A stretch of 64,000 bases of DNA, from the NCBI GenBank assembly GCA_000165345.1, contig CM000436.1:896001-960000 (forward strand). The letters are read 5' to 3'. A program made the translations under genes and the position numbers. The notes beneath the pieces are model-generated. The model ran no database searches and was not told the DNA's origin. It was given only the letters and a program-made list of their open reading frames with translations. Positions 17,373 to 63,052 of the stretch are shown here, piece by piece (within the stretch, counting starts at the first letter, position 1; each line of letters begins with the position of its first letter).

Positions 17373-18378
17373 CTCTTCAAGATTCACATAAATAAATTAA
17401 CAATTTCAAATAGGAGATCTTTATCAGAAGCTTAAGATTATTTTTCTTTTGTTGTCAGCAACTTAAATACTCCTCGGATTGCATTCTTTTATTATTACTC
17501 CTTGTTAGACGGGAAAAACTAACAATTGAATCTCTTCTGGCCAATGATTAGTTAACAAAATAGTCTTCACGTAATAGTGCAGTCCCAGGCGTTGGATTCC
17601 TAAAGTAGTACTAGTATTCACAAAAAAAATCTATATTCGTTATCGACGTTACCTGCAATAACTGCAAAAAAAATCATGTCTTTACCGCCAATTTGTGCGT
17701 ACTAATTTGTCGGCGGGCTGTGCAGCCGGAATAAAGTCGAAATTTAAACATAAAATTAAAGTACTAAAGTATAAAAATAAAATACTCAGATATAAATATT
17801 GATTCCGGAATCGCAACCTTCCTCAAAAAATAAGTCAGTAGAGGGAGCGAAATCATCATTGTATTTTATCGCTTAAGTTAAAAGCTATGCAAAAAGAGCT
17901 AAAATCCAAATATTGTCGGCTCATTATTACACAACCTGAAAACTCAAATATAACTCCATATTTCTCTCGAAATAATATTTATAAAGCTAATACTTCAAGA
18001 CTCATGACTATTGAAATCTTGTAATTCCACAATATAAGCGATATCCATGCTCCGAACTTCAATTAAAATCATATAAACTAGGCTTAAGGTTATCTCAGCG
18101 ATTGAATATGACAATATCACAAACTCCTCTGGATTCCGGGTAGGTTCAAACCCAAAACAGCAGAAAGGAGATTCAATCAATACATGCAAGCATCATTGAA
18201 TAACCAAAGCCCAGATATTCTCCAAGATTTGATGATTTCTCTAAAGCAAATTTATTCTTGTCTCCGATATTCTTAAAAGGGATAGACAAATACATGGCGC
18301 CGATATTGTTGAGTTATATAGCAGGATTTCAAAACCACGGAAATATGATAAAGCGAAATCGTGAAAATATATTGCCTT

Positions 18379-20031: not shown

Positions 20032-20259
20032 TCGAAACCTATATTTGCTTCTATTCCTCACTAATATGTTCATTTCAAAATTTTTTATTACAAGTCTGAT
20101 CTAATAATTTTGATTCCGAAGGCGGGTAATTTTGGCTTATTTCTTCACCTGAAAAAAAACTAGTGAATTTAAACAAACTCGTTATTTTGTGCGATTAGAG
20201 AAAATTTATGGTTAAATGCAATCTTATAACAAAATATTATAATTTTTATCTATCAAATT

Positions 20260-33145: not shown

Positions 33146-33345
33146 TCAAGCTAAAGTTAATTACTATTAAGGTTTGCATTCTCACAAGCTTTTGTAATGA
33201 AATTTTATTTAAAGTGAGTTTCGGAAGAGAATAGGAGGGTTGCTCATATAATAGGTTAGTATTTTAGTATTGTATACCTTACGTCCAAAACTTACGGGTT
33301 TTGGCCGGGGAAAATCCATAACTAGGCTTGCTCGAATTGCTCAAA

Positions 33346-39300: not shown

Positions 39301-41523
39301 AATACGGTTTATATATATGATTTCTTGGATCTATTTGAAGAAGCAATTAAGAGTTTGTGGAATAAATGCCCAAAATACTTTGTTACAACGCCTTCTAGTG
39401 TTTCGCTTTCTAAATCAAACATAAAATCAGCAAGAGCAAATGGTTCTACTACAGCAGGAATCTCAACTAATTGTGAATCGGGCTTTGAACAATCTAGTGG
39501 AAAGACAGCATTTTTGCCCAATAAACTCTTAGAGTATGTTGAATTGGATATCAATAAGGATTCAGGAGAACTAGAATGCGTTAGTAGAGAGCCTGGGAAT
39601 AACACCTGTGGAATGGTTGCATGGTGTATTACTATGCATACTCCAGAGTACCCAAAGGGTAGAAGAGTGATTCTTATTGGAAATGATATTACTTATCAAA
39701 TGGGGACCTTTGGCATTCAAGAGGATCTTTTGTTTCAAAGAGCATCGGAATACGCAAGAAGCTTAGGAATCCCTAGAATATTTATTGCAGCAAATAGTGG
39801 TGCTAGAATGGGGCTAGCGACGGAGGTTCAGAAATGCATGAAAGTTGAATTTGTTGATCCTGAAAACCCAGTTAAGGGATACAAGTATCTATATGTTACG
39901 GAAGAAGACTATAACAAATTTGATCTGCAGAATAGTATTAATTACGAAGTAATAGATCATCCTAAAGATGGGAAAATATACAAAATTACTGATGTTATTG
40001 GATCTCAGCTAGGACTTGGAGTTGAGAATCTCTCAGGAAGCGGAGGAATTGCAGGTGAAACATCAAAGGCATCTAAGTCGATTATGACAATTACATATGC
40101 AACTACTAGAACAGTTGGAATTGGTGCCTATTTAGCAAGGCTTGGTCATAGAGTTATTCAAAAAGCTCATGGAGCTCCAATAGTACTTACAGGATATCAG
40201 GCACTTAATAAGGTAGCGTCAAAAGAAATTTATAGCAGCAATGATGAATTGGGAGGTACAGAGATTATGGCAAAAAATGGTGTAACACACCTCGTTGTTA
40301 AAGATGACTTAGAGGGTTGCGTAGAAATACTTAAATGGCTGAGCTATGTACCTGAATGCGTCGGAGGAAGGCTACCAATAATGGTGGATCCAACAGATCC
40401 TATATATAGGAATATTACATACTCTTGTAATAGTAATACTGAAGACCCAAGATTAATGCTTACTGGATGCGTAGACTCAAGAGGACGTTGGCTATCTGGT
40501 CTCTGTGATAAAGATTCTTTCAAAGAAGTTATGAGTGATTGGGCGAAAAGCGTAATAGTAGGTAGAGGAAGAATTGGGGGAATACCTGTTGGGTTCATTT
40601 TAGTTGAAACTAGAGTTACTGAATACATTCAGCCAGCAGATCCAGTAATGCCACACACAAGTGAACTTAGAGTTACTAGGGCAGGACAAATATGGTTCCC
40701 TGATTCTGCATATAAGACTGCACAAGCAATTCGTGATTTCAATATGGAAGAACTCCCATTGATAATTCTTGCAAATTGGAGAGGATTTAGTGGAGGCCAG
40801 AAAGATATGTTTGACCAAGTCCTAAAGTTTGGGTCTTACGTAGTTGATGAACTTGTCAATTATAAACAACCTTGCTTTGTTTACATACCTCCAAAGGGAG
40901 AACTGCGCGGAGGAGCTTGGGTAGTAGTAGACTCAAATATTAATCCAGAATTCATTGAAATGTATGCCGACCCTACAGCAAGAGGAAGCGTCTTGGAAGC
41001 TGCTGGAATAGTTGAAATTAAGTTTAGAAGCAAGGCGCTTAAAGAATGGATGATGAGATTAGATCCAGAATTACTCTCCCTACAAGAGAAAGATCAACTA
41101 CTTCATCTTAAAGGCTATCCAATAGACTCTTCTGAAAGAAGCTCAATAAAAGAAAAGATTAATAAAAGATGCAGCTTACTTCATTCAGTTTATCACGCCG
41201 CTGCAATTCATTTTGCAGATTTGCACGATACTTCAAATAGAATGAAAGCTAAGCAAGCAATCCATGATATTGTTCAGTGGAAGAATGCAAGAGTTTTTTT
41301 CATTCATCGAATCAAAAGACAATTACTGCTTTTTTCTTTAAGGTCTGAAATTTCCCAAAAGCTTGGAATTTCTCTCACAGATTCTCAAAATGTGGTCTTT
41401 CAATGGGCAATACAAGACGGAATAGATCCAAATAATAACACTCAATTCATTCAATGGATTTGCCACAGTGCTAACATTATTGAACAGAGAATCTCTCAAC
41501 TATCTAGCTCTGATATAAGGTAG
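33346..41523 (+). CDS. ACC: Acetyl-CoA carboxylase, multidomain eukaryotic type (biotin carboxylase, BCCP, central region, carboxyltransferase), about 2725 aa, single exon.
   Basis: The track start at 33328 is a TTG; the first ATG is at 33346 (MKKEEENL..). Biotin carboxylase is supported by IKKILVATSGQAAIKCIRS, GWGHASENPELP, MIKASSGGGGKGIRL and EVNARLQVEHVVSE. The biotinyl domain reads VEIEIMKTYMQL, with the Lys codon at 35431..35433. The carboxyltransferase region has GGRLPIMVDPTDPI, IILANWRGFSGGQKDMFDQVLKFGSYVVDEL and GELRGGAWVVVDSNINPEFIEMYADPTARGSVLE. A long S/N-rich low-complexity insertion lies at about 38280-38580. Confidence 0.9.
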   Translation: MKKEEENLPIYSSLEEFIEINGGVNLIKKILVATSGQAAIKCIRSMRHWAYVTFGNEKAFEFVVMATPEDIQSNSESVSEADYYVDIPMGPNYHNYANIEVIVSIAEEHECDAVWPGWGHASENPELPKALLRARRKIIWIGPSAESMETVGQKIQSNIIAQSVQVPCVPWSGDGISVSVDRDGRFTGIVSDEQLQAACVNSTQECIDVCKRIGFPVMIKASSGGGGKGIRLCSSMEDLESNYRQVINEVKGSQVFVMRAVNKCRHLEVQVLGDKYGDVFALSTRDCTIQRRHQKVIEEGPVTIVSQEIVKELELSAERMCKAVGYSSAGTVEFLYDIERSCIAFLEVNARLQVEHVVSEGVANCNIPAAQLQIAMGIPLKKIRDIEEYRKLRKQGNAPPRHIIAARITSEHAEKGFTPTCGDVFEISFRSSQTVWGYFSVASPGHIHQYSDSQFGHIFAFGMNREEARKHLIMGLKGLTIRGEIRTNVEAVCRILENQDFITGNTYTQWLEHSVYFSSPLTKKVTMQYLNAVFAAACFTGLRYFKESEDTFVRMLEQGQAPTSINIQYEMTLVHKGMKFICESHFIGPEHVRIMLNGSSVTAKVRNIYPPSMQNGRDSCYLISGGFDGRNRKVFFKKDAEDNLLVTFDGTTYTFLKEQDPRQVRAPVSGKLVRWLIQNGGQGEKGQAYVEIEIMKTYMQLTLSHSGVLEHAKPQGASFNVGDILAMLELPSEFIPPALELYPLPFPKIGGVKSPKLALETFCSGGFRGGPRMVALANFREGKQQLLNALNGFFPAFEDVRSALGMFYHVLDPIMPFIELQEACEVATPLIKVTVRRKISDLIEDVFQTFEQLSKNSWYEQFDRQLSAFISNNSCFESDVMSDQCLNSFEDNDDIEDEGQPPKVLQDKRLSSDGSEMPSMLLSNKADELDPKNASFAQNKKELAKEIFVNEAEQKKSFENFLGTNIYLKNHSKNIRSASDLEIYILDCLKIVSDIIEESIQDSDNENISVDEFVAIRNQYDPLIHIIRRNEKGRWMRLMYELHEIILKYIEIEKLFEERSSLVPARIIPSLRTEYELPELMQMGRSHQQLRVKNEIMEEIAKEMANNPSLLQCTAPFRDTIHQIAELTSTEYTKVAGAFRYVLLMKENVTTTTQIQSVTKKIFEYSQLISLAQTHGQHLISIANTPSSPLQYPINATPSLSTWSGIPNLGNSQQTSLSNIIADFTNFPDFTLLACIGHPNPIIGKLAFEIYIRRHYERCGLSFYAIKSRGEAWDSSVDISTVGNSSMLMTSCPDLKGAVPLRGEIQNFNNILGVWTHNALTTSSFFQNQCDPLRSNTLNIPAIQNNVDQYNQNENNSKGRTLSILESNNTSKNMSSKCHVKGAIHIENSRWKSMLNAFSGQSLSSIADDLLEESLPIQTSIGLYFESISDFQDRFEQCVDELKILHGFFPQISSSVDSIVMLVILSSFSNGEITTESEVASINDENDSSSIETQSNSRDIIEILKGTINKHQEKLSNNNIHMISFTIAPYSDQNKPESLSASLVYLKTPVHYHFRSKKGIPIYKYNSQDLESNLSLQDSLMNQAESVEMEDLENNYFIEEPFIRNIPSTLLSTLELKRLRYFTIKSIPTSISGINLYVGTPRELCSGYSVIGKRKEAENKENNSSLKNGNSNISKSHESDSGKNVKLSESNTSEKPNYSGPQTKRISTKEMEGENLTNKSNKTLSAKPVTSKISGYNKQRRYFIRVLVQHECSELYFEEQERYFIAALSTLESWLSFDQNYSNTSSSTVSRGHTGLNHLLFTSVGVLNDKNSGYITTSMAEEAARTLVQRYSQRIQQSSLQTMEFRYIQRSVYQKDSNNVVVPVRFVVDNPTGQAIRLRSFVEIKNPTTSGGKVFAAIDSKQSFLNFVSTSRSDKTFSLPGLQQSKSLKEISNLNKGSKILTINENMVPNLALYQHEHIYDGKPLDIPHPLIGKIDQKRYQAAELNTVYIYDFLDLFEEAIKSLWNKCPKYFVTTPSSVSLSKSNIKSARANGSTTAGISTNCESGFEQSSGKTAFLPNKLLEYVELDINKDSGELECVSREPGNNTCGMVAWCITMHTPEYPKGRRVILIGNDITYQMGTFGIQEDLLFQRASEYARSLGIPRIFIAANSGARMGLATEVQKCMKVEFVDPENPVKGYKYLYVTEEDYNKFDLQNSINYEVIDHPKDGKIYKITDVIGSQLGLGVENLSGSGGIAGETSKASKSIMTITYATTRTVGIGAYLARLGHRVIQKAHGAPIVLTGYQALNKVASKEIYSSNDELGGTEIMAKNGVTHLVVKDDLEGCVEILKWLSYVPECVGGRLPIMVDPTDPIYRNITYSCNSNTEDPRLMLTGCVDSRGRWLSGLCDKDSFKEVMSDWAKSVIVGRGRIGGIPVGFILVETRVTEYIQPADPVMPHTSELRVTRAGQIWFPDSAYKTAQAIRDFNMEELPLIILANWRGFSGGQKDMFDQVLKFGSYVVDELVNYKQPCFVYIPPKGELRGGAWVVVDSNINPEFIEMYADPTARGSVLEAAGIVEIKFRSKALKEWMMRLDPELLSLQEKDQLLHLKGYPIDSSERSSIKEKINKRCSLLHSVYHAAAIHFADLHDTSNRMKAKQAIHDIVQWKNARVFFIHRIKRQLLLFSLRSEISQKLGISLTDSQNVVFQWAIQDGIDPNNNTQFIQWICHSANIIEQRISQLSSSDIR

Positions 41524-42256: not shown

Positions 42257-42266
42257 TTTTGGCGGG
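42257..42266. promoter_or_regulatory. TTTTGGCGGG box in the 270-bp bidirectional promoter shared by Dim1 (minus strand) and the 42389 gene.
   Basis: The same TTTGGCGG core recurs at 22404, 48268, 63053 and 43951 (reverse strand). Confidence 0.4.
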
Positions 42267-43950: not shown

Positions 43951-43963
43951 TTTCCCGCCAAAA
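43951..43963. promoter_or_regulatory. Canonical E2F-type site TTTCCCGCCAAAA (reverse strand TTTTGGCGGGAAA) in the divergent promoter between the 43822 minus-strand gene and the 44179 gene.
   Basis: It matches the textbook E2F consensus TTTSSCGC exactly and is flanked by A/T runs. Confidence 0.45.
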
Positions 43964-50328: not shown

Positions 50329-51636
50329 TTATATTTCCAAGACTCCTCTGGACCTAAAGGCAATTCTAAGTTGTTCACGGACATGTTCTACAGCTTCTGA
50401 TTTTCTTGGTCTTATACGGCCTCTTTCAGAGTTATTCGCACGCCTACCGTATCCTCCGTTGCTTTTAGGCTGCTGGGTTAGGTTTCTGAGTTCAGGATTT
50501 GATAACGCTATGGCATTATTACTGCTATCAGTAGCCTTTTCAGAGATAGGGTTTGGATGCAGCCCCAAACTCTTTCTATTCCTATGAAAATTTCTCTTGG
50601 TGTGTTTAAGGTTTATTTTAGAAGGCTCAGGAAAATCATTAAGCGCCGAGGTAACCTGCGTATTTTGCGTAGGATTATGCTTGTTGGACGACGAACCAAC
50701 ATTATTGTTCCTTTGATAAAACCTCTTCTTTCTTCTAACCTTGATATTATAATTTCTATCATTATTATTAAACGGGTTATCGCTATGAGCAGCTACTACT
50801 GCATCCAAGCCAGAACAATGAGTCGTTAATCTATCTACTTGATTTGTTCCGGAGTTCACCACTCCCATAGTTGTGTCTACACTACTGTTGTTATCATCAC
50901 TAAGTATCATCTTCAAATTCGAGTCCTTTTCCACAATTGTTTTAAGGAGGTGAGTATTAATAGACTGGCTTGAAATCGAATTTGATGCATTATCACTATT
51001 GCAGGTGGTGCTTAGAATGTTCCTTTGAGAGAACTTCTTTCTCCTTTTATACTTCTTCTTCTTTCTCTTAGACTCGTCAAAGTTTATATGAGCAATAGTT
51101 GTGTTAATAACCTGGTCGAGCAAGCCATCAAACTTAGTCGTAATCGTCTCTTGAGTTGAAGAAGTCTGAGAAGAAGAGTTTTTGAGAGCAACACTAGGCT
51201 TCTGCTGCTGTTCTGCTTGAAATCCCAAGTTCAAGTGGTTTTCTTCGTAGATATAACCTTCAGAGCACGATCCATGATCAGACCCTGGGGGAGAATTAGC
51301 TTTGGAGTTTTGCTTATTATGCTCATCGTCTTCTGCTCCAATAACGGTGATAGGTAATTGCAGAGGGTTATTAGAATGTGAGAGAGACTTTTCAGAAGCC
51401 AGATTAATACCCTTACTTTGTGTATCTACTACCAAACTGCCCCCAGATTTGTTCAGATTAAGTGCTCTTCTTTTAGTAGCAATTAGAATTGCAGTCTCTC
51501 TGGAAACACCAAGGTATTCAGCTTCAGCTATCCAACGAAGCAGCTCCTCATCAAAAACAGGGCCAGTTATAGGGACTGAGCCAAAGGCAAGATTCGGGGA
51601 GACGTCCTCCTGACGGTTCAAGAGACCAACCATCAT
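50329..51636 (-). CDS. Hypothetical low-complexity protein (435 aa).
   Basis: ATGATG start. It is S/N/Q-rich with a basic block KRKKKKYKRRKK. Its coding GC content is noticeably higher than the neighbours. No domain recognised. Confidence 0.5.
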   Translation of the reverse strand: MMVGLLNRQEDVSPNLAFGSVPITGPVFDEELLRWIAEAEYLGVSRETAILIATKRRALNLNKSGGSLVVDTQSKGINLASEKSLSHSNNPLQLPITVIGAEDDEHNKQNSKANSPPGSDHGSCSEGYIYEENHLNLGFQAEQQQKPSVALKNSSSQTSSTQETITTKFDGLLDQVINTTIAHINFDESKRKKKKYKRRKKFSQRNILSTTCNSDNASNSISSQSINTHLLKTIVEKDSNLKMILSDDNNSSVDTTMGVVNSGTNQVDRLTTHCSGLDAVVAAHSDNPFNNNDRNYNIKVRRKKRFYQRNNNVGSSSNKHNPTQNTQVTSALNDFPEPSKINLKHTKRNFHRNRKSLGLHPNPISEKATDSSNNAIALSNPELRNLTQQPKSNGGYGRRANNSERGRIRPRKSEAVEHVREQLRIAFRSRGVLEI

Positions 51637-52805: not shown

Positions 52806-55800
52806 TTAATTTGATTTTTTTGGATTTACAGGAGATGATTGTGAAATGTGTATTACTTTTTGATCGCTAATAGGGCTGGAAAAACAGCCGTGTTTAACAT
52901 TACGCTTATTATTTGCATTATTATCAAATTCTCCAAAATCTTGTTCCTCATCATCGCTTATAGCATTATTCAGAAAGTCAAAGTCGTTCCTTTCTCCTAA
53001 TAAATTATACTCCCTCTTATTTCTGTAACTAGAAGTGAATTTAGAAACCAAATAACCAATCAAATTCTTCAGGAGCGTATAGATAGGAGAATGTAAAATT
53101 GCTATTGAGCACGCAATTACAATGATTAGGAATAGCAACATTTTTCTTGTAGATCTTTTTGAATCAAGGATTTTTTGTAGTGACTCTTTTTCAGAAATTT
53201 CAAACTCGGAGTTGCCAACGTTAGTTGGATCAATTTGGTGATATGTCACTTTTCTATCTAACTTATTAGTATCTGATTCGTGAGCAGAGCTGTGAAAATA
53301 CTCTCGATTAGAAGACACACTGAATGGATTGTCGAGTAGTTTTACTGTTTGAAGAGAATCTTTTTCAATAAAGTTTTGACCTCTAATATTTGATGATTGG
53401 GATTGTCTATTATTTTGCTTAAAAACATTCCAATCTCCATCCCAAACTACATTACCCCATCCTACCGAGTTCGCCTTATAACCCGATACTTCAATCAAGA
53501 ATTTGTTTTTGGTCTCTAAATATACGGGTATCCATGGCGCAACCTTATAAAATGAAGCAGAATTCTTGGGAGACATGCTATTAGTATCAATTACAAGAAA
53601 TCCACGTTTAGAGAATTGCTCCTGACTTTCTGAAAAGATTTTCGAAAATTCATGATAACTATATGATAGTGAAACTGTATACCCAGCATCAAAAATATGT
53701 AAATTATAAGGATATACACGTTCTTCTGGACCACTTTCCGACTTTCCAATGATGTAAATCGATTTGGAAATTCTTTTGGGAGCTTTCCTATCCATTAGAG
53801 GTGTAGACAATCGAATTGTCAGATGAAGGTTTTGCCCTGCTATGATTGGTACTGAAGGATCTGGCGTGATAGAAACAATGAGTGGGTAGTTCTTTGAAAT
53901 ATTATGACTAATTGGAATTAGTGAAATTCCTAACATAATTGGTACGCTTTTAAGGTTAAAAGGAGGGAGGCTTCTAATAGAGCATTCCAAAAGATGCTTT
54001 TGAGCCGTGAGAATAACCGTAATTCTTTCCATTGCGTATAAAGGTGTAGAAATGTTTCCATTAAAATGCAGTAGACTGGACTTAATTAATTCAACTTCTG
54101 AAGATGTTTCTTTATCATTTTCATCATTCTGAGAGTAATCTGGTTCGGAATAAAGTGTTAATTTAGATGATACAAGAAGAGGATTGTAATATAAGTCTGC
54201 AATTAGCAAGGCCTGACCAGGAGAGATCTTTTTTAAGTCGAATAGAAGGTCAGTTTCAAACTCATTCGAATTTAAAGAAAGTACAACATTTGATGGGGGA
54301 AGATGTATATATTGAGGTAGAGTGTTTGTTGAAAGAGCACTACTCAATTTGCTTTGCACTGAGCTAAACCATGCATCTGCATATGTGCTAAATGGAGGAG
54401 GATTTAGAAACTTAATATCTTTATTTTGTGGAGAAACTGTATGCATAATAATGTCAAATGCCATACATGGAATCCTGTTATTTATTGAATCAAGTTTGTG
54501 AGTGAAGGTCATCCAAAAAGGAATGTTTAAGGCTCCTGCATGCTCGCTTCCAATAATATCAATATCGATCTTAAAAACCTTCTCAACGGAATTCAGGAGT
54601 GAATCCACATTAGTGTATATAGGATTTATTGGTGTAGAGTTTATTTTAGTGAACAAAACTTCGAGCATATTCGGAGACTCAGAAATATCAAAGTTTACAG
54701 GACTCAATGAGAGTCTTAAGAATGTAGGAAATAATTTTTTGTTAAGTTCAAGGAACACTTTCTTCCTACCATTGTGAATATCTGTAAGTGTGATTCTTGA
54801 TCTAAAAATAAACATTGGCTTATTTGTATCCAATGGGCCACCAAATACTGTGCTTCCACCCTGTATACTCGTTAAATCGAGTGGCAATGGCACTCCATTA
54901 GGTATGTGACACTTAGAATTGATATTTGACTGAGATAAGGCTTTATTTTTGCTTTTATCTAAGTCTAATGAATTATCAATTACCATAGAAGATTCTATAG
55001 CTGTCTCTGAGCCATCAATTGGTGATACTTCAACGAAAATTGAAAATAATAATATTTCATGCTCTTCATAGCTTGAAAATGAATTTAGCGACTCTATTCG
55101 AAGTATATATTGGCCTTTCGTGAGTTCCACTTCCAAATAGCTCTGAGTTCCTCTTTGTTCTGCTACCCAAAATCCTTCAGGGACAATTATTCCAATCCTA
55201 TAAAATGAATAAAGAAAATCAGAGTGAGTCTGTAGGTAAACTATTGAAGATGATGCCACATTTAATTTCAAATCATGAATACTACTTGAAAAGGTTGAAA
55301 GTTTACTTCTAGTCATAATTTGTCCTTGGCAGATATTAATTATTCCAGAGTTAAAGTAAGGACTATTCTCTTCATTTAGACTGATCTTAAAATCCTCCAG
55401 ATAATAATGGCATTTCTGTTTTGGTCCAAACATTTCCTTTTCAGTCATTTTTGATATTCCTTTTTCTACAGATTCTGTAATACCTCTAATCCTTCCGGTA
55501 CCAACCACTCCAACACTTTCATATCTTTCTAGTTCAATGTTAAAACCTTTCGAGAGAGATAGATTTTTTCTGAAGAAATTTTCATAATCTACAGGATTGA
55601 ACTTAATCAACCCAAAAGTAATTAAATAAGGCATATTATTTGGAGCAGGTGAAAATTGAATCTCATATTCACCGGATGAAAGTAGTGCTAAAGTATCTCC
55701 ATACTTTCCAGACATAAAAATTGGATGGCTCTTTATTTCTTTATTATCTTCTTTAGTTTTAAATATTGTCACATAAAATTCATATCCTGAAATAAGTGTT

Positions 55801-58800
55801 GGTTCGGAAAGGATTCTAAGCAAGTGAGTTTCGTTTTCAGGAACTTTCAGTTTAGTCATTTTTGTTTCTTTTAAGTTAAACATTATAGTACTCACAAACC
55901 CTCTGTGAGACTCTGATAAGAATCTAATTCGATTAAGTGAATCTGGTAATTCTTGGAAAGGAAGTATATCAGGAATACTAATAAGCTCCTGCCTCAAAGA
56001 AAATAGTCTATTCTTCAAAGTAGGCTTGATAGACCCACTTATTTTAAGTAATGCAGATCTTCCCATTGTTAATCTTGTGAACTGATTTTTAGATTGAATT
56101 AATAGCTTATACTTTCCTTCCTTAATGCTTGGGAAAGAATACTCAATTTTGTTTCCAGTATGTATAATATTATTATATTTAACAAAATTATGTCTTGATT
56201 TCTTTTCAGGGTTTGTTTCGCTTCCCTCAAAAAGTCGAACTGTAATAGGTATCCATGCAGGATAAACTTCAAGAATCAGATTTAAACTAATTTCCTCCAA
56301 ATCTGAACTTAAAGGCATTGAAATTTGCATGAAAGGAGAGAACCAAAAGACCATTTCTCGTATCTCAAATAAATCTCTTCTATGAACCAAATTCCTATCA
56401 TGTTTATTCAAATCTTGATTCGGAATAGAAATCATGTTCTTTGAAAGGTCAAAAATTAGTGAGCTTTCTGGAAGCATCTTTCTTAAATAGTCTTGGGAGA
56501 TTGAAAATAGTTCAGTATGACTCCATTCTGATGCTTGTTTTGATTGAGAACCTTTTTTTTCCGTAACATACTTGTAAAGCTCAGGTAGTACCAATGGAGG
56601 GAATATAGGAAGATCCTCAATTGAAATAATTGACAAATGTAGGCGAAATGTGGGGCATCCACCTTCTTCAAGTTTCTCATCTACTCCTTCTTCAAGAATG
56701 TCAAACTCAAATATAAGATCATGAGTACCTTTATTAAATTCAGCAAAAAATGAGGTTGGATCATTTGGGCCAATTTTTGTTAGATTTTTTTTTTTAGCTG
56801 AAATTATTACTAGTCCAGGATAATTTGTAATGGAAGCTTTTAAAACACTTGAATGAGAGAGATTAAGAGTAATAGAATATGACGCAGATGTTCCCTTAAG
56901 AAAGTGTTCAGATTCATGAATGTTAGTGCCTTCTAATTCGTATTCCTCAAGAGGAACTAAGTACGTTCCATCTAGTATGAATTCTTCTCCTTTTAAGTAA
57001 TGAGTTAGGTCTATCTCTTGTGGAAGCGTCATTTGAAATACTTGGCACTTAATGAACTGGTTTTCTTCAGAATTAATTTCTTCGTAAATATCATTGGAAG
57101 ATTTGTAGTTATTACTACTAGATCCTGTCTCTAATCCACTAAAATTTAACAGTTGAACTAGAGAAATTTTACTATCAAATTTGATGCATTCCAATTCATA
57201 AATGTCAAAGTTATCTGGGATAGCTGAAAAAATTTGTAATTTATAAGTTCCAGCGACTAATGGCCCAACTGATGAAAAGAAGTTGTGAATATTATGTGGA
57301 GTTAGTGTCATCCATATTTTCTCATTGAATAAGACATTAATGAATACCAGTGAAAGAGGATGCTCAGGAATTTGTATTTGAATTGACAAATAAGTTGGAG
57401 ACATATCCTTTACACGAAATTCTTGTGTATGTATTTTTGAGATACCTAAAACTGTGGAACTAATTGACAAAGTAGAGATATCAGGAGTAATATAGTTCCT
57501 TTTTAATTTATTATTTGGGTTCGGGGATATCTGCAACTTAAAGTCGTGCGCATTAATTGGATGTGAGCAACCACTGGTATTAGATGAAACAGGGAATATT
57601 TCAAGAAGAAAATGAAATGGAGTGCAAAGAGAAACAGAATTCTGGGTTTCACTGATCTTGTAGCTGTGAATGTGCAGATAGTAATCTCCTGGCTCGTTAA
57701 TTTTGCAATATATAAGATTCATTTCCTTTGAGGTTACCCCAATATGGTTCAGGTTTTTTGAAGTGCAGAGAGTAGGTTTAGTGGTATAGCCAGTGGAATC
57801 GTTTGAATCAAAGATATCGTCGGAGAAAAATTCAAGATCTTCATCTTCTTCTGAGATCTCAGGTGACCTTGATAGGACTATGGCTATATCAGAGTGATCA
57901 TGATAGGATAATAAATAAAGTATGCTAGGCCTAGAAATTTTGATATTAATAGCATGGTTGGTATGAAATGTTAAGGACGCGAATGGTCCCTGTAAATTAA
58001 TTTTTGGGCCAAACAATAGGTAGCTTGACGAAATAGCATTGGGCTTTCTCAAATCTTGAAACTTTTCAGCATATAGCCCATCTTGTACAATTGTTGTTGG
58101 TAATTTTGGTAGATTACAGACATTTTGGCTGGAAAGAATCTCGTCAGAAAGCTTTTCTGAATGTGTTTGGAAAGAAACTGCTATCTTAAGATCAAATCTT
58201 GCAAAGCGAGGAATGTGTTCCATCCAAGGCGCAATAACTACAATTCGAAATGACTTCTGAGATATGTTTTCCTTAAACAGCTGGCCATTGTAAATTGGAG
58301 TTCCAAAAAATACCCTGCTACGAAGACTTTCGCTAACTTGATGACTCTCTAATTCGCGATGAGCCTGCTCAACTCTTAAAGGTTCAATAACTAATTGTAA
58401 TGGCATTCTAGAAAATTTAAAACCAAGCTCAATGTACAAATTAAGCAGCTTTTCTTCTTTTGACCTTGAGGATGGAATAACAAAAAGTTTTGACCATAAA
58501 ATAGTAGCTTTGTAAAGCTTACTTGAATAGTTTATTCCTAATGGGGTTGTTCTTACCACAAAAGAATCATCAATTTGATTTATGAATTCGTATTTCTCAT
58601 CTGAGCTCAAATTAATAAGAGGCTTTTTAAAAGGATCATTGAGAGATAATGAGCTAATTGAATTTATAATATCAGGAGTAGTTAGACCAAATTCAAAATT
58701 GATTGGTGAGCAATACGAATTATCAATTTTCTCTAAATCATCTTCATTTTTGACAAAATTAGAACCGATCACTATTAAATATTGAGATGGAATTAACTTG

Positions 58801-59177
58801 GTCCTTAAAAAAAGCCTCGTATTATTTCCTGCTACTCCCCATGTTAAGTTTGCCTCAGCAACTAATTTCTCATTATTTGCTTGAGTAATTTGCAAATAGG
58901 AAAAGTCTAAATCACTGTCAAAAGACCTCTCTAAAGATACAGAAATCACACTTTCATATCTAATATTTAAAATAATCTTATTTTCTGGTTCATGACGAAT
59001 TCCTCTAGTTTCAGAATAATACAATTCATGATTTCCATATCCAAGGCCATCAATAAATTCCGGAATTAATTGATATTTACAATTGAGAGTAGATCTTGAG
59101 ACTGTTGCTTTAGACGGCTCGGTAGCAAGCAGAATACATAGAATAGTGTAAATCTGTAATATTTTAAGAATTCTCAT
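52806..59177 (-). CDS. Giant type I membrane glycoprotein (2123 aa): signal peptide, about 2000-aa ectodomain, one TM helix, acidic cytoplasmic tail. Single exon.
   Basis: ATG at 59177. The signal peptide is MRILKILQIYTILCILLATEPSKA. The ectodomain has more than 60 NxS/T sequons and no internal repeats that I can see. The C-terminal TM helix is MLLFLIIVIACSIAILHSPIYTLL, followed by a tail ...DDEEQDFGEFDNN.... Confidence 0.8.
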   Translation of the reverse strand: MRILKILQIYTILCILLATEPSKATVSRSTLNCKYQLIPEFIDGLGYGNHELYYSETRGIRHEPENKIILNIRYESVISVSLERSFDSDLDFSYLQITQANNEKLVAEANLTWGVAGNNTRLFLRTKLIPSQYLIVIGSNFVKNEDDLEKIDNSYCSPINFEFGLTTPDIINSISSLSLNDPFKKPLINLSSDEKYEFINQIDDSFVVRTTPLGINYSSKLYKATILWSKLFVIPSSRSKEEKLLNLYIELGFKFSRMPLQLVIEPLRVEQAHRELESHQVSESLRSRVFFGTPIYNGQLFKENISQKSFRIVVIAPWMEHIPRFARFDLKIAVSFQTHSEKLSDEILSSQNVCNLPKLPTTIVQDGLYAEKFQDLRKPNAISSSYLLFGPKINLQGPFASLTFHTNHAINIKISRPSILYLLSYHDHSDIAIVLSRSPEISEEDEDLEFFSDDIFDSNDSTGYTTKPTLCTSKNLNHIGVTSKEMNLIYCKINEPGDYYLHIHSYKISETQNSVSLCTPFHFLLEIFPVSSNTSGCSHPINAHDFKLQISPNPNNKLKRNYITPDISTLSISSTVLGISKIHTQEFRVKDMSPTYLSIQIQIPEHPLSLVFINVLFNEKIWMTLTPHNIHNFFSSVGPLVAGTYKLQIFSAIPDNFDIYELECIKFDSKISLVQLLNFSGLETGSSSNNYKSSNDIYEEINSEENQFIKCQVFQMTLPQEIDLTHYLKGEEFILDGTYLVPLEEYELEGTNIHESEHFLKGTSASYSITLNLSHSSVLKASITNYPGLVIISAKKKNLTKIGPNDPTSFFAEFNKGTHDLIFEFDILEEGVDEKLEEGGCPTFRLHLSIISIEDLPIFPPLVLPELYKYVTEKKGSQSKQASEWSHTELFSISQDYLRKMLPESSLIFDLSKNMISIPNQDLNKHDRNLVHRRDLFEIREMVFWFSPFMQISMPLSSDLEEISLNLILEVYPAWIPITVRLFEGSETNPEKKSRHNFVKYNNIIHTGNKIEYSFPSIKEGKYKLLIQSKNQFTRLTMGRSALLKISGSIKPTLKNRLFSLRQELISIPDILPFQELPDSLNRIRFLSESHRGFVSTIMFNLKETKMTKLKVPENETHLLRILSEPTLISGYEFYVTIFKTKEDNKEIKSHPIFMSGKYGDTLALLSSGEYEIQFSPAPNNMPYLITFGLIKFNPVDYENFFRKNLSLSKGFNIELERYESVGVVGTGRIRGITESVEKGISKMTEKEMFGPKQKCHYYLEDFKISLNEENSPYFNSGIINICQGQIMTRSKLSTFSSSIHDLKLNVASSSIVYLQTHSDFLYSFYRIGIIVPEGFWVAEQRGTQSYLEVELTKGQYILRIESLNSFSSYEEHEILLFSIFVEVSPIDGSETAIESSMVIDNSLDLDKSKNKALSQSNINSKCHIPNGVPLPLDLTSIQGGSTVFGGPLDTNKPMFIFRSRITLTDIHNGRKKVFLELNKKLFPTFLRLSLSPVNFDISESPNMLEVLFTKINSTPINPIYTNVDSLLNSVEKVFKIDIDIIGSEHAGALNIPFWMTFTHKLDSINNRIPCMAFDIIMHTVSPQNKDIKFLNPPPFSTYADAWFSSVQSKLSSALSTNTLPQYIHLPPSNVVLSLNSNEFETDLLFDLKKISPGQALLIADLYYNPLLVSSKLTLYSEPDYSQNDENDKETSSEVELIKSSLLHFNGNISTPLYAMERITVILTAQKHLLECSIRSLPPFNLKSVPIMLGISLIPISHNISKNYPLIVSITPDPSVPIIAGQNLHLTIRLSTPLMDRKAPKRISKSIYIIGKSESGPEERVYPYNLHIFDAGYTVSLSYSYHEFSKIFSESQEQFSKRGFLVIDTNSMSPKNSASFYKVAPWIPVYLETKNKFLIEVSGYKANSVGWGNVVWDGDWNVFKQNNRQSQSSNIRGQNFIEKDSLQTVKLLDNPFSVSSNREYFHSSAHESDTNKLDRKVTYHQIDPTNVGNSEFEISEKESLQKILDSKRSTRKMLLFLIIVIACSIAILHSPIYTLLKNLIGYLVSKFTSSYRNKREYNLLGERNDFDFLNNAISDDEEQDFGEFDNNANNKRNVKHGCFSSPISDQKVIHISQSSPVNPKKSN

Positions 59178-59698
59178 TCACACATAATATTATTGCGTAA
59201 TTGAGAATAATCTTAATGCTAGCTAGTTTCGATTTAAGGTGACTTTTCATATAATAAAAATATTACAAATATTATGGCTCCCGCCTTATGCCATTTAATT
59301 GTTTCACTGAAAAATTTTTAACCGGTATAGGAAATGTAGGCGGCAAAAGTCTAGTAGACTGTATTTTATAGTAAATAATAGCTTAAGTTACAAAAATACT
59401 ATAAATTACGTATTTTGGGTTATTGAACTATAAAAATAATTAGGTTATGTACTACTGATAATTATGGTAGATTGTAAATGGGGGGAGGGGAAAAGGAGGG
59501 TTAAATAAAATTAAATTTGTGACGTTTACAAGAGCAGTAAATTTTACAAGAACTGGGAAAATAAATTAGCTCTAAATTCTGAGAAGAAATAATCCAACTA
59601 TTTAGAGAGTATTCAAGAGTGTCTATATAGTAAAAATGTTTTTCTCTTCGATGCCATTTGATATGGGTGGAGGATTTGATGGAAGAATGGGTGGAAGG

Positions 59699-60910
59699 AT
59701 GTCTCGCGAGGTTGATAACAAGAAATTATATGAGATCCTAGAAGTCAGCCAAGAGGCAACTTTAAGCGAGATTAAAAAGGCTTATCGTCGCCTTGCAATT
59801 AAACATCATCCTGATAAGGGTGGAGACCAGGAAAAATTTAAGGAGGTTAGCAGAGCATACGAAGTACTTAGCGATCCAGAAAAGAGAAAGATATACGATG
59901 AATACGGTGAGGAAGGATTAGAGGGAGGAGGAGGAGGAGCAGATCCAGTTGACTTATTTGATGTAATTTTCGGAGGTGGAAGACGCGCAGGCAGTAGAGG
60001 AGGTGGAAAGAGACGTGGCGAAGATTTGGTAACTCACCTCAAGGTCACTTTGGAACAGATTTACAACGGAGCAGTAAGAAAGATGGCAATAAATAAAGAT
60101 ACTATCTGTGCAGATTGTGAAGGTGTTGGTGGGCCGAAAGATGCCATCCAGTATTGTGAGCTTTGCCAAGGTCAAGGTGTCAGAGTGCAAATTAGACAAA
60201 TTGGACCAATGGTTCAACAAACTCAGTCTCCTTGTAATCCTTGTAAAGGAACTGGTAAGACCATTCCAGTTACCAAGCAATGCAAGAAATGCAGCGGTAG
60301 CGGATCTGTGAAAGAACGAAAAGTTTTAGAGGTCAACATCGACAAGGGTATTCCAAATCATCATAAGGTTACTTTTCATGGAGAAGCAGACGAAAAGCAG
60401 GGCGAAATCCCAGGAGATGTAGTTTTTGTTCTAGATGAACAAGAACATTCTGTATTCAAAAGGAAAGGCGGTGATTTATTTATTGAAAAGGATATCACTC
60501 TTGTCGAGGCTTTGACCGGTTTCAAATTTATCATTACTCATTTGGATGGTAGGAAACTCCTTGTTAAGTCAAATCCTGGAGATATTACTAAGCCAAGTGA
60601 CATAAAGTGCGTAAACAATGAGGGAATGCCAACTTACAAGAATCCATTTGTTAAGGGCCATTTGTTTGTTATTATTAACATTATTTTCCCAGATAAGCTT
60701 GACAGCAAAACTCAAGATCTTGTCAAGACATTGCTTCCTGCTCCAAAAGCATTAAATGTTGATGAAGATGACCCATCAATTGAAATTCATTATACAAGTA
60801 ATACCAAGCCATCTGAGGTCAAAGACCGCATCCAAAAAGAGGCGTATCAAGAAGATGATGAGGATGGGCATCACGGAGGTGCTGAAAGAGTATCTTGCCG
60901 TCAACAATAA
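59699..60910 (+). CDS. YDJ1: Type I DnaJ/Hsp40 (DNAJA/Ydj1-like): J domain, G/F region, four CxxCxGxG zinc-finger repeats, C-terminal CaaX (403 aa from ATG 59699; an upstream in-frame ATG at 59636 would add 21 aa).
   Basis: The J domain reads [62 protein letters not shown], including the HPD motif. The zinc-finger repeats are [25 protein letters not shown] and CKKCSGSG. The sequence is collinear with human DNAJA1 and ends ..SCRQQ, a farnesylation CaaX box. Confidence 0.9.
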
Positions 60911-61405: not shown

Positions 61406-61849
61406 ATGGAAAGGTATGCGCCGATAAAAGAGTGGGAGAAAGAATCGTTTAGTGCCTCTGGTTCTAACAAAAACAATGTAGCAAAACAGACAAGAATTAA
61501 GGAAAATAAAAGATACAGCAGGGTGGAAAGTGACTATGACTTTGAGTCAGGATTAAACAACTGGACGCAGGACGACAACTTTACGAGACCAGCAAATACA
61601 GACAGTAGCATAAATATTCTAGAAAATGCGGTTTCACAGTTGAAGTCAGTGGGCTACGGAATCCAGTCAGAAATAAATTTACATTTGGATATGTTGAATG
61701 AGATGAACTTGAACATGGATTCTACAAATAGAAGAATCCGAATTTCTCAAAAGATCCTTAATAGATTATTAGAAATGGCAAGTACAATGACATTAACCAT
61801 TATTGCATTCTTACTGTTCATATTATTAATCTTGCAGTGGGTTTTATAG
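61406..61849 (+). CDS. BET1: Tail-anchored Bet1-like Qc-SNARE (147 aa).
   Basis: The SNARE heptad region is ILENAVSQLKSVGYGIQSEINLHLDMLNEMNLNMDSTNRRIRISQKILNRLLE, with layer spacing like Bet1 (IG.EV..QN.LL..MD..FD.T). It is followed directly by a C-terminal TM anchor TMTLTIIAFLLFILLILQWVL. Confidence 0.6.
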   Translation: MERYAPIKEWEKESFSASGSNKNNVAKQTRIKENKRYSRVESDYDFESGLNNWTQDDNFTRPANTDSSINILENAVSQLKSVGYGIQSEINLHLDMLNEMNLNMDSTNRRIRISQKILNRLLEMASTMTLTIIAFLLFILLILQWVL

Positions 61850-61897: not shown

Positions 61898-62854
61898 TTA
61901 ATGCAAAGGAGGCAATACAGGCTCTCTGAATGAATTTACATCAGAAGCAGTTCCATGATACTTTTTTTCAAGTTGGTTCGGGTTTATCCACTTCAGAAGC
62001 TCGGATTTATAATCTGAGGTACATAATGTTATTTTATCTCTAGTAGACTGGGGTAAAACCAAACTAATTGCTTGCCATAATCCCCAAAATATGATTGGAG
62101 CGTTGATAAACGACATCTGGGCGAGATAACCTCTGTAGTTCCTTTGGAGATTTGTTGCAATATCCTTGAGAAGTGAAATAGGCGCATTGTAAAAAGTTAC
62201 ATCTTGGAGATCCATGATAACTCTCCACTGCTCAACTCTGTTCCATGCTAGCATATTTGTTATTACAAACTCGAACCAATAATAAACTACATGAATTATA
62301 TTGTCAGGTTCTTCCCCATCTAAAAAAGCTTTAGCTCTAAAAACTATGATTGGTCTTAACAATTTGTCTCTTCCATGAATATAACAGTACCCATTCCTTA
62401 GTAGCTTCTCTAATTTATTCCTATCTTCAATCATTCTAAAGTTTTGTCTCCACCTAACGTGACGCTTAATATCATCCCATGCTTTTACGAAATCGTACTC
62501 ATTACCTTGTAAGTACCTTAATAAAAGATGATTATCACAAAAAGCGGTATTTTTTAATGAAACATGCCTAGACTTGAGATATGTATGCATTTCTCTAATC
62601 TTTCCTTCCTCAAATTCATCCAAAGGAAGATCTCCGAAAATATATCTCATCCCATTCTCTCCAAATCCATGTCTAATGGCATCTATTGGAGGATTAAAGT
62701 TTACCACTTCTAATGGTCTATATTTCGTCACTGTTAAATCTTTCTCTCTTCCATTTCTATATTTTGCCAAACGGTCTTCTTTAATAGTATGCCCATGGTG
62801 AGTCGGGCTATTAGAATGTGGGGTTTGATGCTTTGGAGATGGAGAGTTCGTCAT
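61898..62854 (-). CDS. Sec14/CRAL-TRIO domain lipid-transfer protein (about 318 aa from the ATG at 62854).
   Basis: The track start at 62905 is a GTG. The CRAL-TRIO core is KLLRPIIVFRAKAFL...WRVIMDLQDVTFYNAPISLLKDIATNLQRNYRGYLAQMSFINAPIIFWGLWQAISLVLPQSTRDKITL, which parallels Sec14 (LDLKGIS..., ...[40 protein letters not shown]). Confidence 0.75.
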   Translation of the reverse strand: MTNSPSPKHQTPHSNSPTHHGHTIKEDRLAKYRNGREKDLTVTKYRPLEVVNFNPPIDAIRHGFGENGMRYIFGDLPLDEFEEGKIREMHTYLKSRHVSLKNTAFCDNHLLLRYLQGNEYDFVKAWDDIKRHVRWRQNFRMIEDRNKLEKLLRNGYCYIHGRDKLLRPIIVFRAKAFLDGEEPDNIIHVVYYWFEFVITNMLAWNRVEQWRVIMDLQDVTFYNAPISLLKDIATNLQRNYRGYLAQMSFINAPIIFWGLWQAISLVLPQSTRDKITLCTSDYKSELLKWINPNQLEKKYHGTASDVNSFREPVLPPLH

Positions 62855-63052
62855 TATATATAATTTCCCTACTCTAATTACCTTTGTCTTGCTGGTTCCT
62901 GACACTTAATATCGTCTCTTTTCCACACCTTCTTTTATCTTTAATTAATTTAAATTATCACTGATTTAATTTCCATCCAGTTTGAATTTTATTTAAAGTT
63001 CAAATATAATTTATATTTTGTCTAAAAATAATTAGGCCAAAATTTGTGAGCA

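What the first reader, a model, noticed from the sequence alone, without database searches (positions are those of the whole stretch)
52806..59177. 2123-aa single-exon type I membrane glycoprotein with no recognisable domains
It has a clean signal peptide, a roughly 2000-aa ectodomain studded with more than 60 N-glycosylation sequons, a single C-terminal TM helix and a short acidic tail. It is the largest secreted-pathway protein in the window and sits directly beside the housekeeping DnaJ gene in divergent orientation (shared promoter 59178-59698 with GGCGG boxes). The secondary-structure feel is beta-rich, with alternating hydrophobic patterns throughout. It could be a giant adhesin or surface receptor, since large surface glycoproteins mediate attachment in apicomplexans, but I recognise no TSP1, EGF, vWA, Apple or LCCL signatures.
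Basis: partly seen in the sequence, partly recalled or inferred. Interest (0 to 1): 0.5.

Follow-up and report, generated by a model that had tools for sequence, protein, structure and literature searches.

The report
Giant repeat-built secretory-pathway membrane protein
This is a real 2123-residue membrane-protein gene of Cryptosporidium parvum, but it is an ancient, strongly conserved protein shared with algal relatives, built from repeated beta-sandwich modules and ending in an ER-retrieval signal, so it is more likely an internal secretory-pathway receptor or scaffold than a host-cell adhesin.

Summary
The ORF (52806-59177, minus strand, 2123 aa) is real, and so are its signal peptide, single C-terminal TM helix and mostly-beta ectodomain. 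The claim of more than 60 N-glycosylation sequons is wrong: there are 15, against 23±4 expected from composition. No Pfam or PDB sequence match exists.

The gene is not Cryptosporidium-specific. An exhaustive HMM search found colinear homologues of 1800-2500 aa in Vitrella, a gregarine, Besnoitia and Amoebophrya. dN/dS is 0.06-0.12 along the whole length.

The cytoplasmic tail carries a motif conserved across phyla (acidic, Phi-[G/D]-Phi-Phi, acidic cluster). In 10 of 12 Cryptosporidium species it ends in a canonical KKXX di-lysine signal. I infer an ER-Golgi cycling or resident luminal receptor or scaffold, not a surface adhesin. No localisation data could be retrieved.

The parts
52806..59177 (-). 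Complete CDS, 2123 codons plus stop, single exon
   Evidence: identical to C. parvum P0010; intact in orthologues
59106..59177 (-). Signal peptide, aa 1-24 (MRILKILQIYTILCILLATEPSKA|T)
   Evidence: hydropathy; the mature N-terminus 'TVSRSTLNCKYQLIPEF' is conserved in the genus, and the 'NCK[YF]xxIP' motif is also present in Vitrella and Besnoitia
58662..59096 (-). Module D1 (aa 28-172), a copy of the repeated beta-sandwich module
   Evidence: hhalign D1 vs D3 92.9%, D1 vs D5 88.8%, D1 vs D10 87.7%
58143..58610 (-). Domain D2 (aa 190-345), beta-rich, not related to the repeat module
   Evidence: hhalign probability 8% or less against every other module; strands in the AF2 model
57573..58115 (-). 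Module D3 (aa 355-535), with an acidic insert at 440-470; motif PGDYYLHIHS...CTPFHFLLEIFP
   Evidence: hhalign D3 vs D5 96.0%, E 3.9e-9; alignment A5
57138..57455 (-). Module D4 (aa 575-680); motif AGTYKLQIFS...CIKFDSKISLVQ
   Evidence: hhalign D4 vs D8 95.7%; A5
56610..57035 (-). Module D5 (aa 715-856); part of the best-predicted stretch of the N-half model (aa ~764-1054, block pLDDT mostly 64-84)
56010..56405 (-). Module D6 (aa 925-1056), a weaker copy; carries the only sub-threshold Pfam hit (Y_Y_Y, aa 1003-1031, E 0.017)
55578..55925 (-). Module D7 (aa 1085-1200), a weaker copy; best-predicted domain of the C-half model (pLDDT 63-72)
55002..55370 (-). Module D8 (aa 1270-1392); contains the family's most conserved strand, 'RIGxxVPEGxWVAEQRG...L.VEL..G.Y'
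54423..54920 (-). Domain D9 (aa 1420-1585); near-invariant 'C..G.PLPLDL..GGS..GGP.D...R.R..LTD.HxGRKK' core, a candidate ligand-binding site
   Evidence: invariant columns in A1 and A4; best-matching stretch in nearly all distant homologues
53883..54260 (-). Module D10 (aa 1640-1765), a copy of the repeat
   Evidence: hhalign D8 vs D10 95.8%, E 6.5e-9
53463..53882 (-). Domain D11 (aa 1766-1905), membrane-proximal beta domain unrelated to the repeat ('SITPDPSVPIIAGQNLHLTIRLSTP')
53142..53462 (-). Poorly conserved polar stalk (aa 1906-2012)
   Evidence: lowest conservation in the protein, 0.40-0.60; pLDDT below 50
53073..53141 (-). Transmembrane helix (aa ~2013-2035)
   Evidence: Kyte-Doolittle maximum 2.57
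52944..53009 (-). Conserved cytosolic motif, aa 2057-2078: YNLL (YxxPhi-like), ERNDFDFLNN, acidic cluster SDDEE
   Evidence: invariant or near-invariant in the genus; the equivalent motif acidic, Phi-[G/D]-Phi-Phi, acidic cluster is present in Vitrella, Selenidium, Besnoitia and dinoflagellate-like members
52809..52820 (-). C-terminal KKSN, a canonical KKXX di-lysine signal
   Evidence: K at -3 is invariant; -4 is K in 10 of 12 species and R in 2, although the preceding ~40 aa cannot be aligned between clades
59178..59635 (.). Divergent intergenic region shared with DnaJ (59636-60910, +); GGCGGG at 59280-59285 (minus strand) and GGCGG at about 59340

Best explanation
The gene encodes a member of an ancient, so far unnamed family found in apicomplexans, chromerids and dinoflagellate-lineage organisms (Myzozoa). 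Members are giant type I membrane proteins.

Shown: after signal-peptide cleavage, about 1990 residues face the lumen or exterior. They fold into a string of about 11 beta-sandwich domains. About nine of these are divergent duplicates of one ~100-140 aa module (S-h-h-x-h ... D-h-x-h ... P-G-x-Y-x-h-x-h ... C-x-x-F-x-h-x-h-x-P). Fourteen ectodomain cysteines are invariant in the genus. The most conserved surface lies in D8-D9 (PEGxWxxEQRG and PLPLDL..GGS..GGP.D..LTD.HxGRKK).

Fold-level only, from low-confidence models: the module resembles the GOLD and PPC/collagen-binding jelly-roll.

Inferred: the D8-D9 core binds a conserved luminal ligand. The 88-aa cytosolic tail engages coat or adaptor proteins through the conserved acidic, Phi-x-Phi-Phi, acidic motif. 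In Cryptosporidium the C-terminal KKXX signal binds COPI and returns the protein from the Golgi to the ER. The protein would therefore reside in, or cycle through, the early secretory pathway. It would act like a very large ERGIC-53- or p24-type cargo receptor, or as a luminal scaffold, rather than being displayed as a host adhesin.
For: Gene reality and topology.

Deep conservation: the exhaustive hmmsearch gave 38 hits, 27 of them at E<=1e-10. They include colinear full-length proteins from Vitrella (P0018, E 6e-43), Selenidium (P0019), Besnoitia (P0026) and Amoebophrya (P0027). Signal peptide, N-terminal motif, core, TM helix and tail are shared.

Purifying selection: dN/dS is 0.058, 0.092 and 0.118 against C. 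hominis, chipmunk genotype I and C. ubiquitum. All 150-codon windows lie between 0.04 and 0.25, within the range of neighbouring genes.

Repeat architecture: hhalign probabilities are 88-96% (E 1e-9 to 1e-6) among D1, D3, D4, D5, D8 and D10, with weaker links to D6, D7 and D9. The pooled alignment A5 has a near-invariant Gly and Cys.

Secretory-lumen environment: 14 ectodomain Cys are invariant in 10 orthologues, and 6-8 of them are conserved across the whole family.

Tail signals: KKXX-COOH is present in 10 of 12 Cryptosporidium species despite unalignable flanking sequence. The motif acidic, Phi-[G/D]-Phi-Phi, acidic cluster is conserved across phyla, and many non-Cryptosporidium members end in an acidic run followed by ML, IL, LL, FL, YL or V.

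Established knowledge (recalled, not tested here): KKXX at the cytosolic C-terminus of type I proteins binds COPI and retrieves them to the ER. C-terminal dihydrophobic or valine signals promote COPII export, as in ERGIC-53 and the p24 proteins.
Against: No experimental localisation, expression or phenotype data could be retrieved; the Cryptosporidium hyperLOPIT paper is not held in the library.

There is no sequence-level link to GOLD or PPC.

KKXX is limited to Cryptosporidium. Two species have RKXX. Lys is common in this proteome, and 2 of 30 window ORFs of at least 100 aa end in KKXX or KXKXX. Other lineages carry export-type rather than retrieval-type termini, so the steady-state compartment may differ between lineages. 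KKXX proteins can also escape retrieval, or a signal can be masked.

The ligand and the biological process are unknown.
Confidence: 0.45

Rival explanations
1. Surface or micronemal adhesin: the beta-sandwich array is displayed on invasive stages and binds host matrix or cells, as the collagen-binding domains of bacterial collagenases bind collagen.
For: Type I topology and large size. The fold resembles collagen-binding and CUB-type binding domains. The tail has an acidic cluster and a YxxPhi-like motif, features also seen in microneme-protein tails.
Against: Homologues occur in free-living Vitrella and in organisms with unrelated hosts. Purifying selection is uniform and strong. No TSR, vWA, EGF, Apple, MAR or mucin features were found. 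There is no sub-terminal Trp. The C-terminal KKXX is conserved. Sequons are depleted rather than enriched.
Confidence: 0.15
2. Static luminal spacer or structural protein of the ER or nuclear envelope. It would be an analogue of NOMO (an ER-sheet spacer made of about 12 Ig-like domains) or of the pore membrane protein gp210/NUP210 (about 1900 aa; signal peptide, Ig-like array, one C-terminal TM helix, short tail).
For: Size and topology are almost identical to gp210. The architecture is a beads-on-a-string beta-sandwich array. KKXX implies ER residence in Cryptosporidium. Deep conservation and purifying selection fit a housekeeping structural role.
Against: No member matches the Big_2, NOMO or CarboxypepD_reg Pfam models, even at E<=1. 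The modules are 100-180 aa jelly-roll-like domains rather than ~100 aa Ig domains. Tails in other lineages carry export-type signals. The family was found only in myzozoans, whereas gp210 and NOMO are widespread in eukaryotes.
Confidence: 0.2
3. A factor for building an extracellular wall or matrix (oocyst or cyst wall, thecal material): a membrane-anchored polymer-binding protein acting in the secretory pathway or at the surface during wall formation.
Against: The phyletic pattern is incomplete: only 10 clusters were named, and absence from Plasmodium was not tested with a broad profile. The carbohydrate-binding hits are weak and generic. There is no stage-specific expression information.
Confidence: 0.1

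Closest known systems
p24/TMED family (EMP24/GP25L; GOLD-domain cargo receptors cycling between ER and Golgi)
   Different: p24 proteins are about 200 aa, with one GOLD domain, a coiled coil and a 12-20 aa tail. This protein has about 11 domains, a disordered stalk and an 88-aa tail.
Pre-peptidase C-terminal (PPC, PF04151) / collagen-binding domains of clostridial and Bacillus collagenases (ColG s3a/s3b, ColH s3)
   Different: PPC domains belong to bacterial secreted proteases and are Ca2+-dependent. The PPC Pfam model was not hit by any of the 33 modules or 18 full-length members, and hhalign probability was below 8%.
ERGIC-53/LMAN1 and other KKXX-bearing type I ER-Golgi proteins
   Same: Type I membrane protein with a luminal binding domain and a tail ending in a di-lysine signal preceded by a hydrophobic/aromatic export determinant (KKFF in ERGIC-53; FDFL...KKSN here).
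   Different: ERGIC-53 has an L-type lectin domain and a 12-aa tail. No lectin-domain match was found here. The KKXX signal is present only in the Cryptosporidium branch of the family.
gp210/NUP210 and NOMO (giant type I ER/nuclear-envelope proteins with tandem Ig-like domains)
   Same: Signal peptide, a beta-sandwich array of about 1200-1900 aa, one C-terminal TM helix and a short tail. These are housekeeping proteins of the ER/nuclear-envelope lumen.
   Different: No Big_2, NOMO or CarboxypepD_reg signatures. The module size and motif differ. The family was detected only in myzozoans.
Apicomplexan type I micronemal adhesins (TRAP/MIC2 family, GP900, CpTSPs)
   Same: Signal peptide, large ectodomain, single TM helix and a tail containing an acidic cluster.
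   Different: No TSR, vWA, EGF, Apple or mucin modules. No sub-terminal Trp. KKXX terminus. Strong purifying selection. Homologues in free-living relatives.

Membership tests
p24/TMED (EMP24_GP25L, GOLD domain) | Sequence match to the GOLD/EMP24 profile (PF01105) | tested here: not met
   Not among the Pfam hits of the window protein at E<=1, of 18 family members at E<=1, or of 33 isolated modules at E<=5.
p24/TMED (EMP24_GP25L, GOLD domain) | GOLD-type eight-stranded beta-jelly-roll fold in the lumen | tested here: inconclusive
p24/TMED (EMP24_GP25L, GOLD domain) | Architecture: one GOLD domain, coiled coil, TM helix and a 12-20 aa tail (about 200 aa in total) | tested here: not met
   2123 aa, about 11 domains, a polar stalk and an 88-aa tail.
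KKXX-retrieved type I ER/Golgi membrane proteins (a functional class) | Lys at -3 and -4 (or -3 and -5) from a cytosolic C-terminus of a type I protein | tested here: met
   KKSN, KKTE, KKKA, KKKV or KKKI in 10 of 12 Cryptosporidium species; RKFE and RKSK in the other two; K at -3 is invariant. Topology.
KKXX-retrieved type I ER/Golgi membrane proteins (a functional class) | COPI binding and steady-state ER/cis-Golgi localisation | not testable with these tools
   Needs tail-peptide pull-down and microscopy. The hyperLOPIT data are not held in the library.
PPC / collagen-binding domain (PF04151) | Sequence match to the PPC profile | tested here: not met
   No PF04151 hit. The module profile A5 against PDB sequences gave nothing below E 0.45. 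hhalign against ColG s3a/s3b gave probability 7.4% or less.
PPC / collagen-binding domain (PF04151) | CBD-type beta-jelly-roll fold | tested here: inconclusive
TRAP/MIC2-type micronemal adhesins | Adhesive modules (TSR, vWA/I-domain, EGF, Apple/PAN, MAR) | tested here: not met
   None found in the window protein or in 17 homologues.
TRAP/MIC2-type micronemal adhesins | Acidic cytoplasmic tail with a sub-terminal Trp | tested here: not met
   An acidic cluster is present, but there is no Trp in the last 60 residues of any Cryptosporidium orthologue shown; the terminus is KKXX.
gp210/NUP210 | Ig-like (Big_2) repeats in the luminal domain | tested here: not met
   No Big_2 or other Ig-family hit in 18 members at E<=1.
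gp210/NUP210 | Signal peptide, a luminal domain of about 1800 aa, a single C-terminal TM helix and a short tail | tested here: met
gp210/NUP210 | Localisation at nuclear pores | not testable with these tools
   Needs microscopy or proteomics.
NOMO | NOMO or CarboxypepD_reg-type Ig-like domain signatures | tested here: not met
   No such Pfam hits.

The most novel reading that the evidence does not exclude
The protein founds an unrecognised, myzozoan-wide family of giant 'multi-GOLD-like' cargo receptors or luminal scaffolds of the early secretory pathway, built from a new repeat module. Its near-invariant D8-D9 site would capture a lineage-specific cargo needed to build secretory organelles or walls. 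It may have been lost in blood-stage parasites (Haemosporida and Piroplasmida).
Probability: 0.25. Interest if true: 0.65.

Novelty: new variant of a known kind. Interest (0 to 1): 0.45.

Why it matters
Apicomplexan invasion and transmission depend on sorting many lineage-specific cargoes into micronemes, rhoptries, dense granules and walls, yet few luminal receptors are known; sortilin (TgSORTLR) is the main one. A 2000-aa protein that is strongly conserved, lacks recognised domains and carries coat-binding tail signals is a concrete candidate for such machinery. It is shared by Cryptosporidium, coccidia, gregarines, chromerids and the dinoflagellate lineage.

The analysis also removes this protein from lists of putative Cryptosporidium surface adhesins or vaccine antigens. 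It defines a new repeat module that could seed a Pfam family. If the function turns out to be ordinary, the finding remains one more conserved hypothetical protein, now with a mapped domain architecture.

Tried and rejected
- Pfam on the protein, on 4 and then 18 homologues, and on 33 isolated modules gave nothing. The only recurring sub-threshold hit was Y_Y_Y (4 of 18 members, best E 0.0034).
- PDB sequence searches with the single protein and with profiles A1, A4 and A5 gave nothing significant. The beta/gamma-crystallin hit (E 0.037) and the IL-3R alpha FnIII hit (E 0.45) are treated as noise.
- The word-indexed homologue searches found only Cryptosporidium. The third, run with the broad alignment, was wasted because the candidate cap kept only Cryptosporidium sequences.
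- AF2 on two halves with 9-sequence alignments gave poor models. I used both jobs before the distant homologues were known, so a deeper alignment could not be tried.
- The afdb50 Foldseek library was unavailable.
- Literature: none of the 10 searches found a paper on this gene or family. The type I protein paper that was found concerns cgd5_830, a different gene. The Guerin 2023 hyperLOPIT paper and the proteome supplements are not held. The CryptoDB cgd8 identifier and the Toxoplasma orthologue identifier could not be determined.
- Rejected: heavy N-glycosylation.
- Rejected: a diversifying antigen.
- Rejected: a functional link to DnaJ; the whole neighbourhood is syntenic across the genus.
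- Rejected: a chance ORF or a split gene.

Full report
**1. The observation**

The window is AT-rich (29-39% G+C) and comes from Cryptosporidium parvum. The protein is identical to EAK89533.1/QOY40143.1 and lies at about 939.5-945.9 kb of a 1.34-Mb chromosome (CM109968.1).

The ORF at 52806-59177 (minus strand) is uninterrupted and encodes 2123 aa. At this base composition a stop codon is expected in 7.6% of codons, so an open frame of 2123 codons has a chance probability of about 1e-73.

Hydropathy analysis gives exactly two hydrophobic segments: an N-terminal signal sequence (aa 1-24) and one TM helix at about 2013-2035, followed by an 88-aa tail.

The '>60 N-glycosylation sequons' claim is wrong. 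There are 15 N-x-S/T sites against 23.4±4.5 expected from composition. Every orthologue is at or below its expectation, and only three sites are well conserved.

The DnaJ gene starts at 59636, so the divergent intergenic region is 59178-59635. It contains one GGCGGG and one GGCGG. GGCGGG is enriched throughout the window (7 sites against 2.2 expected) and always lies in upstream regions. It is therefore a general promoter element and not specific to this gene pair.

**2. Conservation**

Word-indexed searches recovered only Cryptosporidium orthologues, from 99% identity (C. hominis) to 37% (C. andersoni), all of them uncharacterised. All are colinear single ORFs. The neighbourhood (CRAL-TRIO, a 147-aa ORF, DnaJ, this gene, a 435-aa ORF, an amino-acid transporter) is syntenic from C. 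parvum to C. andersoni.

Nei-Gojobori dN/dS is 0.058, 0.092 and 0.118 against C. hominis, chipmunk genotype I and C. ubiquitum. Every 150-codon window lies between 0.04 and 0.25. For comparison, DnaJ gives 0.02-0.03 and the other neighbours 0.02-0.14. This is uniform purifying selection, unlike a diversifying surface antigen.

An exhaustive hmmsearch with the C-terminal half profile (A2) against 1.84 billion cluster representatives found 38 proteins at E<=1e-3, of which 27 are at E<=1e-10. The ones that could be named are from:
- Vitrella brassicaformis (1921 aa)
- the gregarine Selenidium pygospionis (1908 aa)
- Besnoitia besnoiti (2332 aa, annotated 'transmembrane protein')
- the syndinian Amoebophrya (1932 aa)
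- further unidentified sequences: one transcript from the MMETSP marine-eukaryote collection plus EukProt, JGI metagenome and Logan entries

The matches are colinear. The full sequences share the signal peptide, the N-terminal 'NCK[YF]xxIP' motif, the core, a single C-terminal TM helix and an acidic tail.

Core identity between Cryptosporidium and the other lineages is 26-36%, and at least 28 distinct 50%-identity clusters carry the core.

No hit could be attributed to Haemosporida, Piroplasmida or ciliates. This is suggestive only, because most hits are unnamed and the profile was built from Cryptosporidium alone.

**3. Architecture**

No family member has a Pfam domain. No profile (A1, A4) matches any PDB sequence.

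I cut the 18-member family alignment (A4) into 11 segments, guided by predicted strands and a recurring 'GxYxLxI' motif, and compared them with hhalign.
- D1, D3, D4, D5, D8 and D10 are mutually homologous (probability 88-96%, E 1e-9 to 1e-6).
- D6, D7 and D9 are linked more weakly.
- D2 and D11 are unrelated to the rest.

The pooled module alignment (A5; 33 sequences, five module positions, seven species) shows a common pattern with a near-invariant Gly (of P-G-x-Y) and a near-invariant Cys before the last strand. This module profile has no significant hit in the PDB or Pfam.

Fourteen ectodomain cysteines are invariant in the genus, and six to eight are conserved family-wide. This fits disulfide bonding in the secretory lumen.

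The strongest conservation lies in D8-D9: 'RIGxxVPEGxWVAEQRG' and 'PLPLDL..GGS..GGP.D...LTD.HxGRKK'.

**4. Fold**

AF2 on the two halves, using 9-sequence alignments, gave poor models (mean pLDDT 49.5 and 42.7). Both are almost entirely beta, and a few domains reach pLDDT 63-84.

| Search | Main hits |
|---|---|
| Foldseek, N-half | tandem CUB arrays, ColG collagen-binding domains, C. perfringens enterotoxin C-domain, SIDT1 ectodomain |

The two independent models agree on a GOLD/PPC-like jelly-roll. Other jelly-rolls score only slightly lower, and the models are weak, so I treat this as a fold-level lead.

**5. The cytoplasmic tail**

Within Cryptosporidium the tail reads: TM helix, amphipathic stretch, 'RNK[RK]EYNL[LI]GERNDFDFLNN', acidic cluster, variable region, 'SSP', then K-K-X-X-COOH.

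Lys at -3 is invariant. Position -4 is Lys in 10 of 12 species and Arg in two. The preceding ~40 residues cannot be aligned between the intestinal, bovine and gastric clades. A conserved terminal motif inside a drifting region indicates selection on the motif.

By established knowledge, KKXX at the cytosolic C-terminus of a type I protein is the COPI-binding ER-retrieval signal.

Outside Cryptosporidium the KKXX is absent. A motif of acidic residues, Phi-[G/D]-Phi-Phi (FDFL, FGLV, LGLV, IGLV, FDFM) and an acidic cluster is shared across phyla. Many members end in an acidic run followed by ML, IL, LL, FL, YL or V. These endings resemble C-terminal COPII export signals; that comparison is recalled knowledge and was not tested here. 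No tail has the sub-terminal Trp of TRAP/MIC2 adhesins.

**6. Interpretation**

Shown:
- The gene is real.
- It belongs to an ancient myzozoan family.
- It is under strong constraint.
- Its ectodomain is a repeat array of an unclassified module.
- Its tail carries conserved linear motifs, including KKXX in Cryptosporidium.

Inferred: the protein resides in, or cycles through, the ER-Golgi system. It would act as a luminal receptor or scaffold, and D8-D9 would be the ligand site. In the way it works, the closest known proteins are the p24/TMED proteins and ERGIC-53. It is not a member of those families, because the sequence-defined criteria failed.

The last is the least compatible with the data. 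The biological process and the ligand remain unknown.

**7. Novelty and limits**

The gene is already annotated as hypothetical, and I found no publication on it or on the family. New from this analysis are:
- the myzozoan-wide distribution
- the internal repeat and its motif
- the GOLD/PPC-like fold lead
- the conserved tail signals

Limits:
- No localisation or expression data were available.
- The structure models are weak.
- The taxon naming of hits is incomplete.
- The CryptoDB and ToxoDB identifiers were not determined.

Note on numbering: the first row of alignment A1 lacks the initiator Met, so positions printed are the true residue number minus one.

Noticed in passing
window 839-844, 5982-5987, 17712-17717, 20121-20126, 42261-42266, 43954-43959, 59280-59285: GGCGGG (E2F-like box) occurs 7 times against 2.2±1.4 expected; none of 100 shuffles reached 7. 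Judged against the ORF maps, every site lies in an intergenic or upstream region. It looks like a general Cryptosporidium promoter element.
   Followed up: partly
window 33328-41523 (+) and 24408-28805 (+): Neighbouring large genes: a 2731-aa multidomain acetyl-CoA carboxylase (the listed ORF starts at TTG, so the true ATG is probably further downstream) and a 1465-aa protein with a sterol-sensing/Patched-like domain.
   Followed up: partly
P0018 aa 1824-1837, P0026 aa 2239-2252, P0021 aa 1853-1866, P0024, P0020, P0022: Six non-Cryptosporidium family members have a small juxtamembrane Cys-loop, C-x-x-G-x(3-4)-[ND]-x(2)-[TS]-x(1-2)-C, about 10-35 residues before the TM helix. It is absent from all Cryptosporidium orthologues, whose stalk is polar and poorly conserved.
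   Followed up: partly
window 50329-51636 (-) and 61406-61849 (+): Two conserved neighbouring ORFs (435 aa and 147 aa) have no Pfam domain. They are syntenic across four Cryptosporidium species and under purifying selection (dN/dS 0.11-0.14 and 0.05-0.08).
   Followed up: partly
window 61898-62905 (-): The CRAL-TRIO ORF is listed from a GTG start as 335 aa, whereas the gene is called as 317-318 aa in C. hominis, chipmunk genotype I, C. ubiquitum and C. andersoni. The real start is probably an internal ATG.
   Followed up: no
P0012 (XP_667909.1, C. hominis TU502): The old TU502 annotation holds only a 1025-aa C-terminal fragment of this protein (it starts at residue ~1099), which is an assembly or annotation artefact. 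Newer C. hominis assemblies have the full 2123 aa.
   Followed up: no
window aa 440-470 of the protein (nt ~57768-57860): Module D3 of the Cryptosporidium orthologues carries an acidic, low-complexity insert (SEEDEDLEFFSDDIFDSNDS...). It is expanded in C. xiaoi and C. ryanae and absent from Vitrella, Besnoitia and Selenidium.
   Followed up: no
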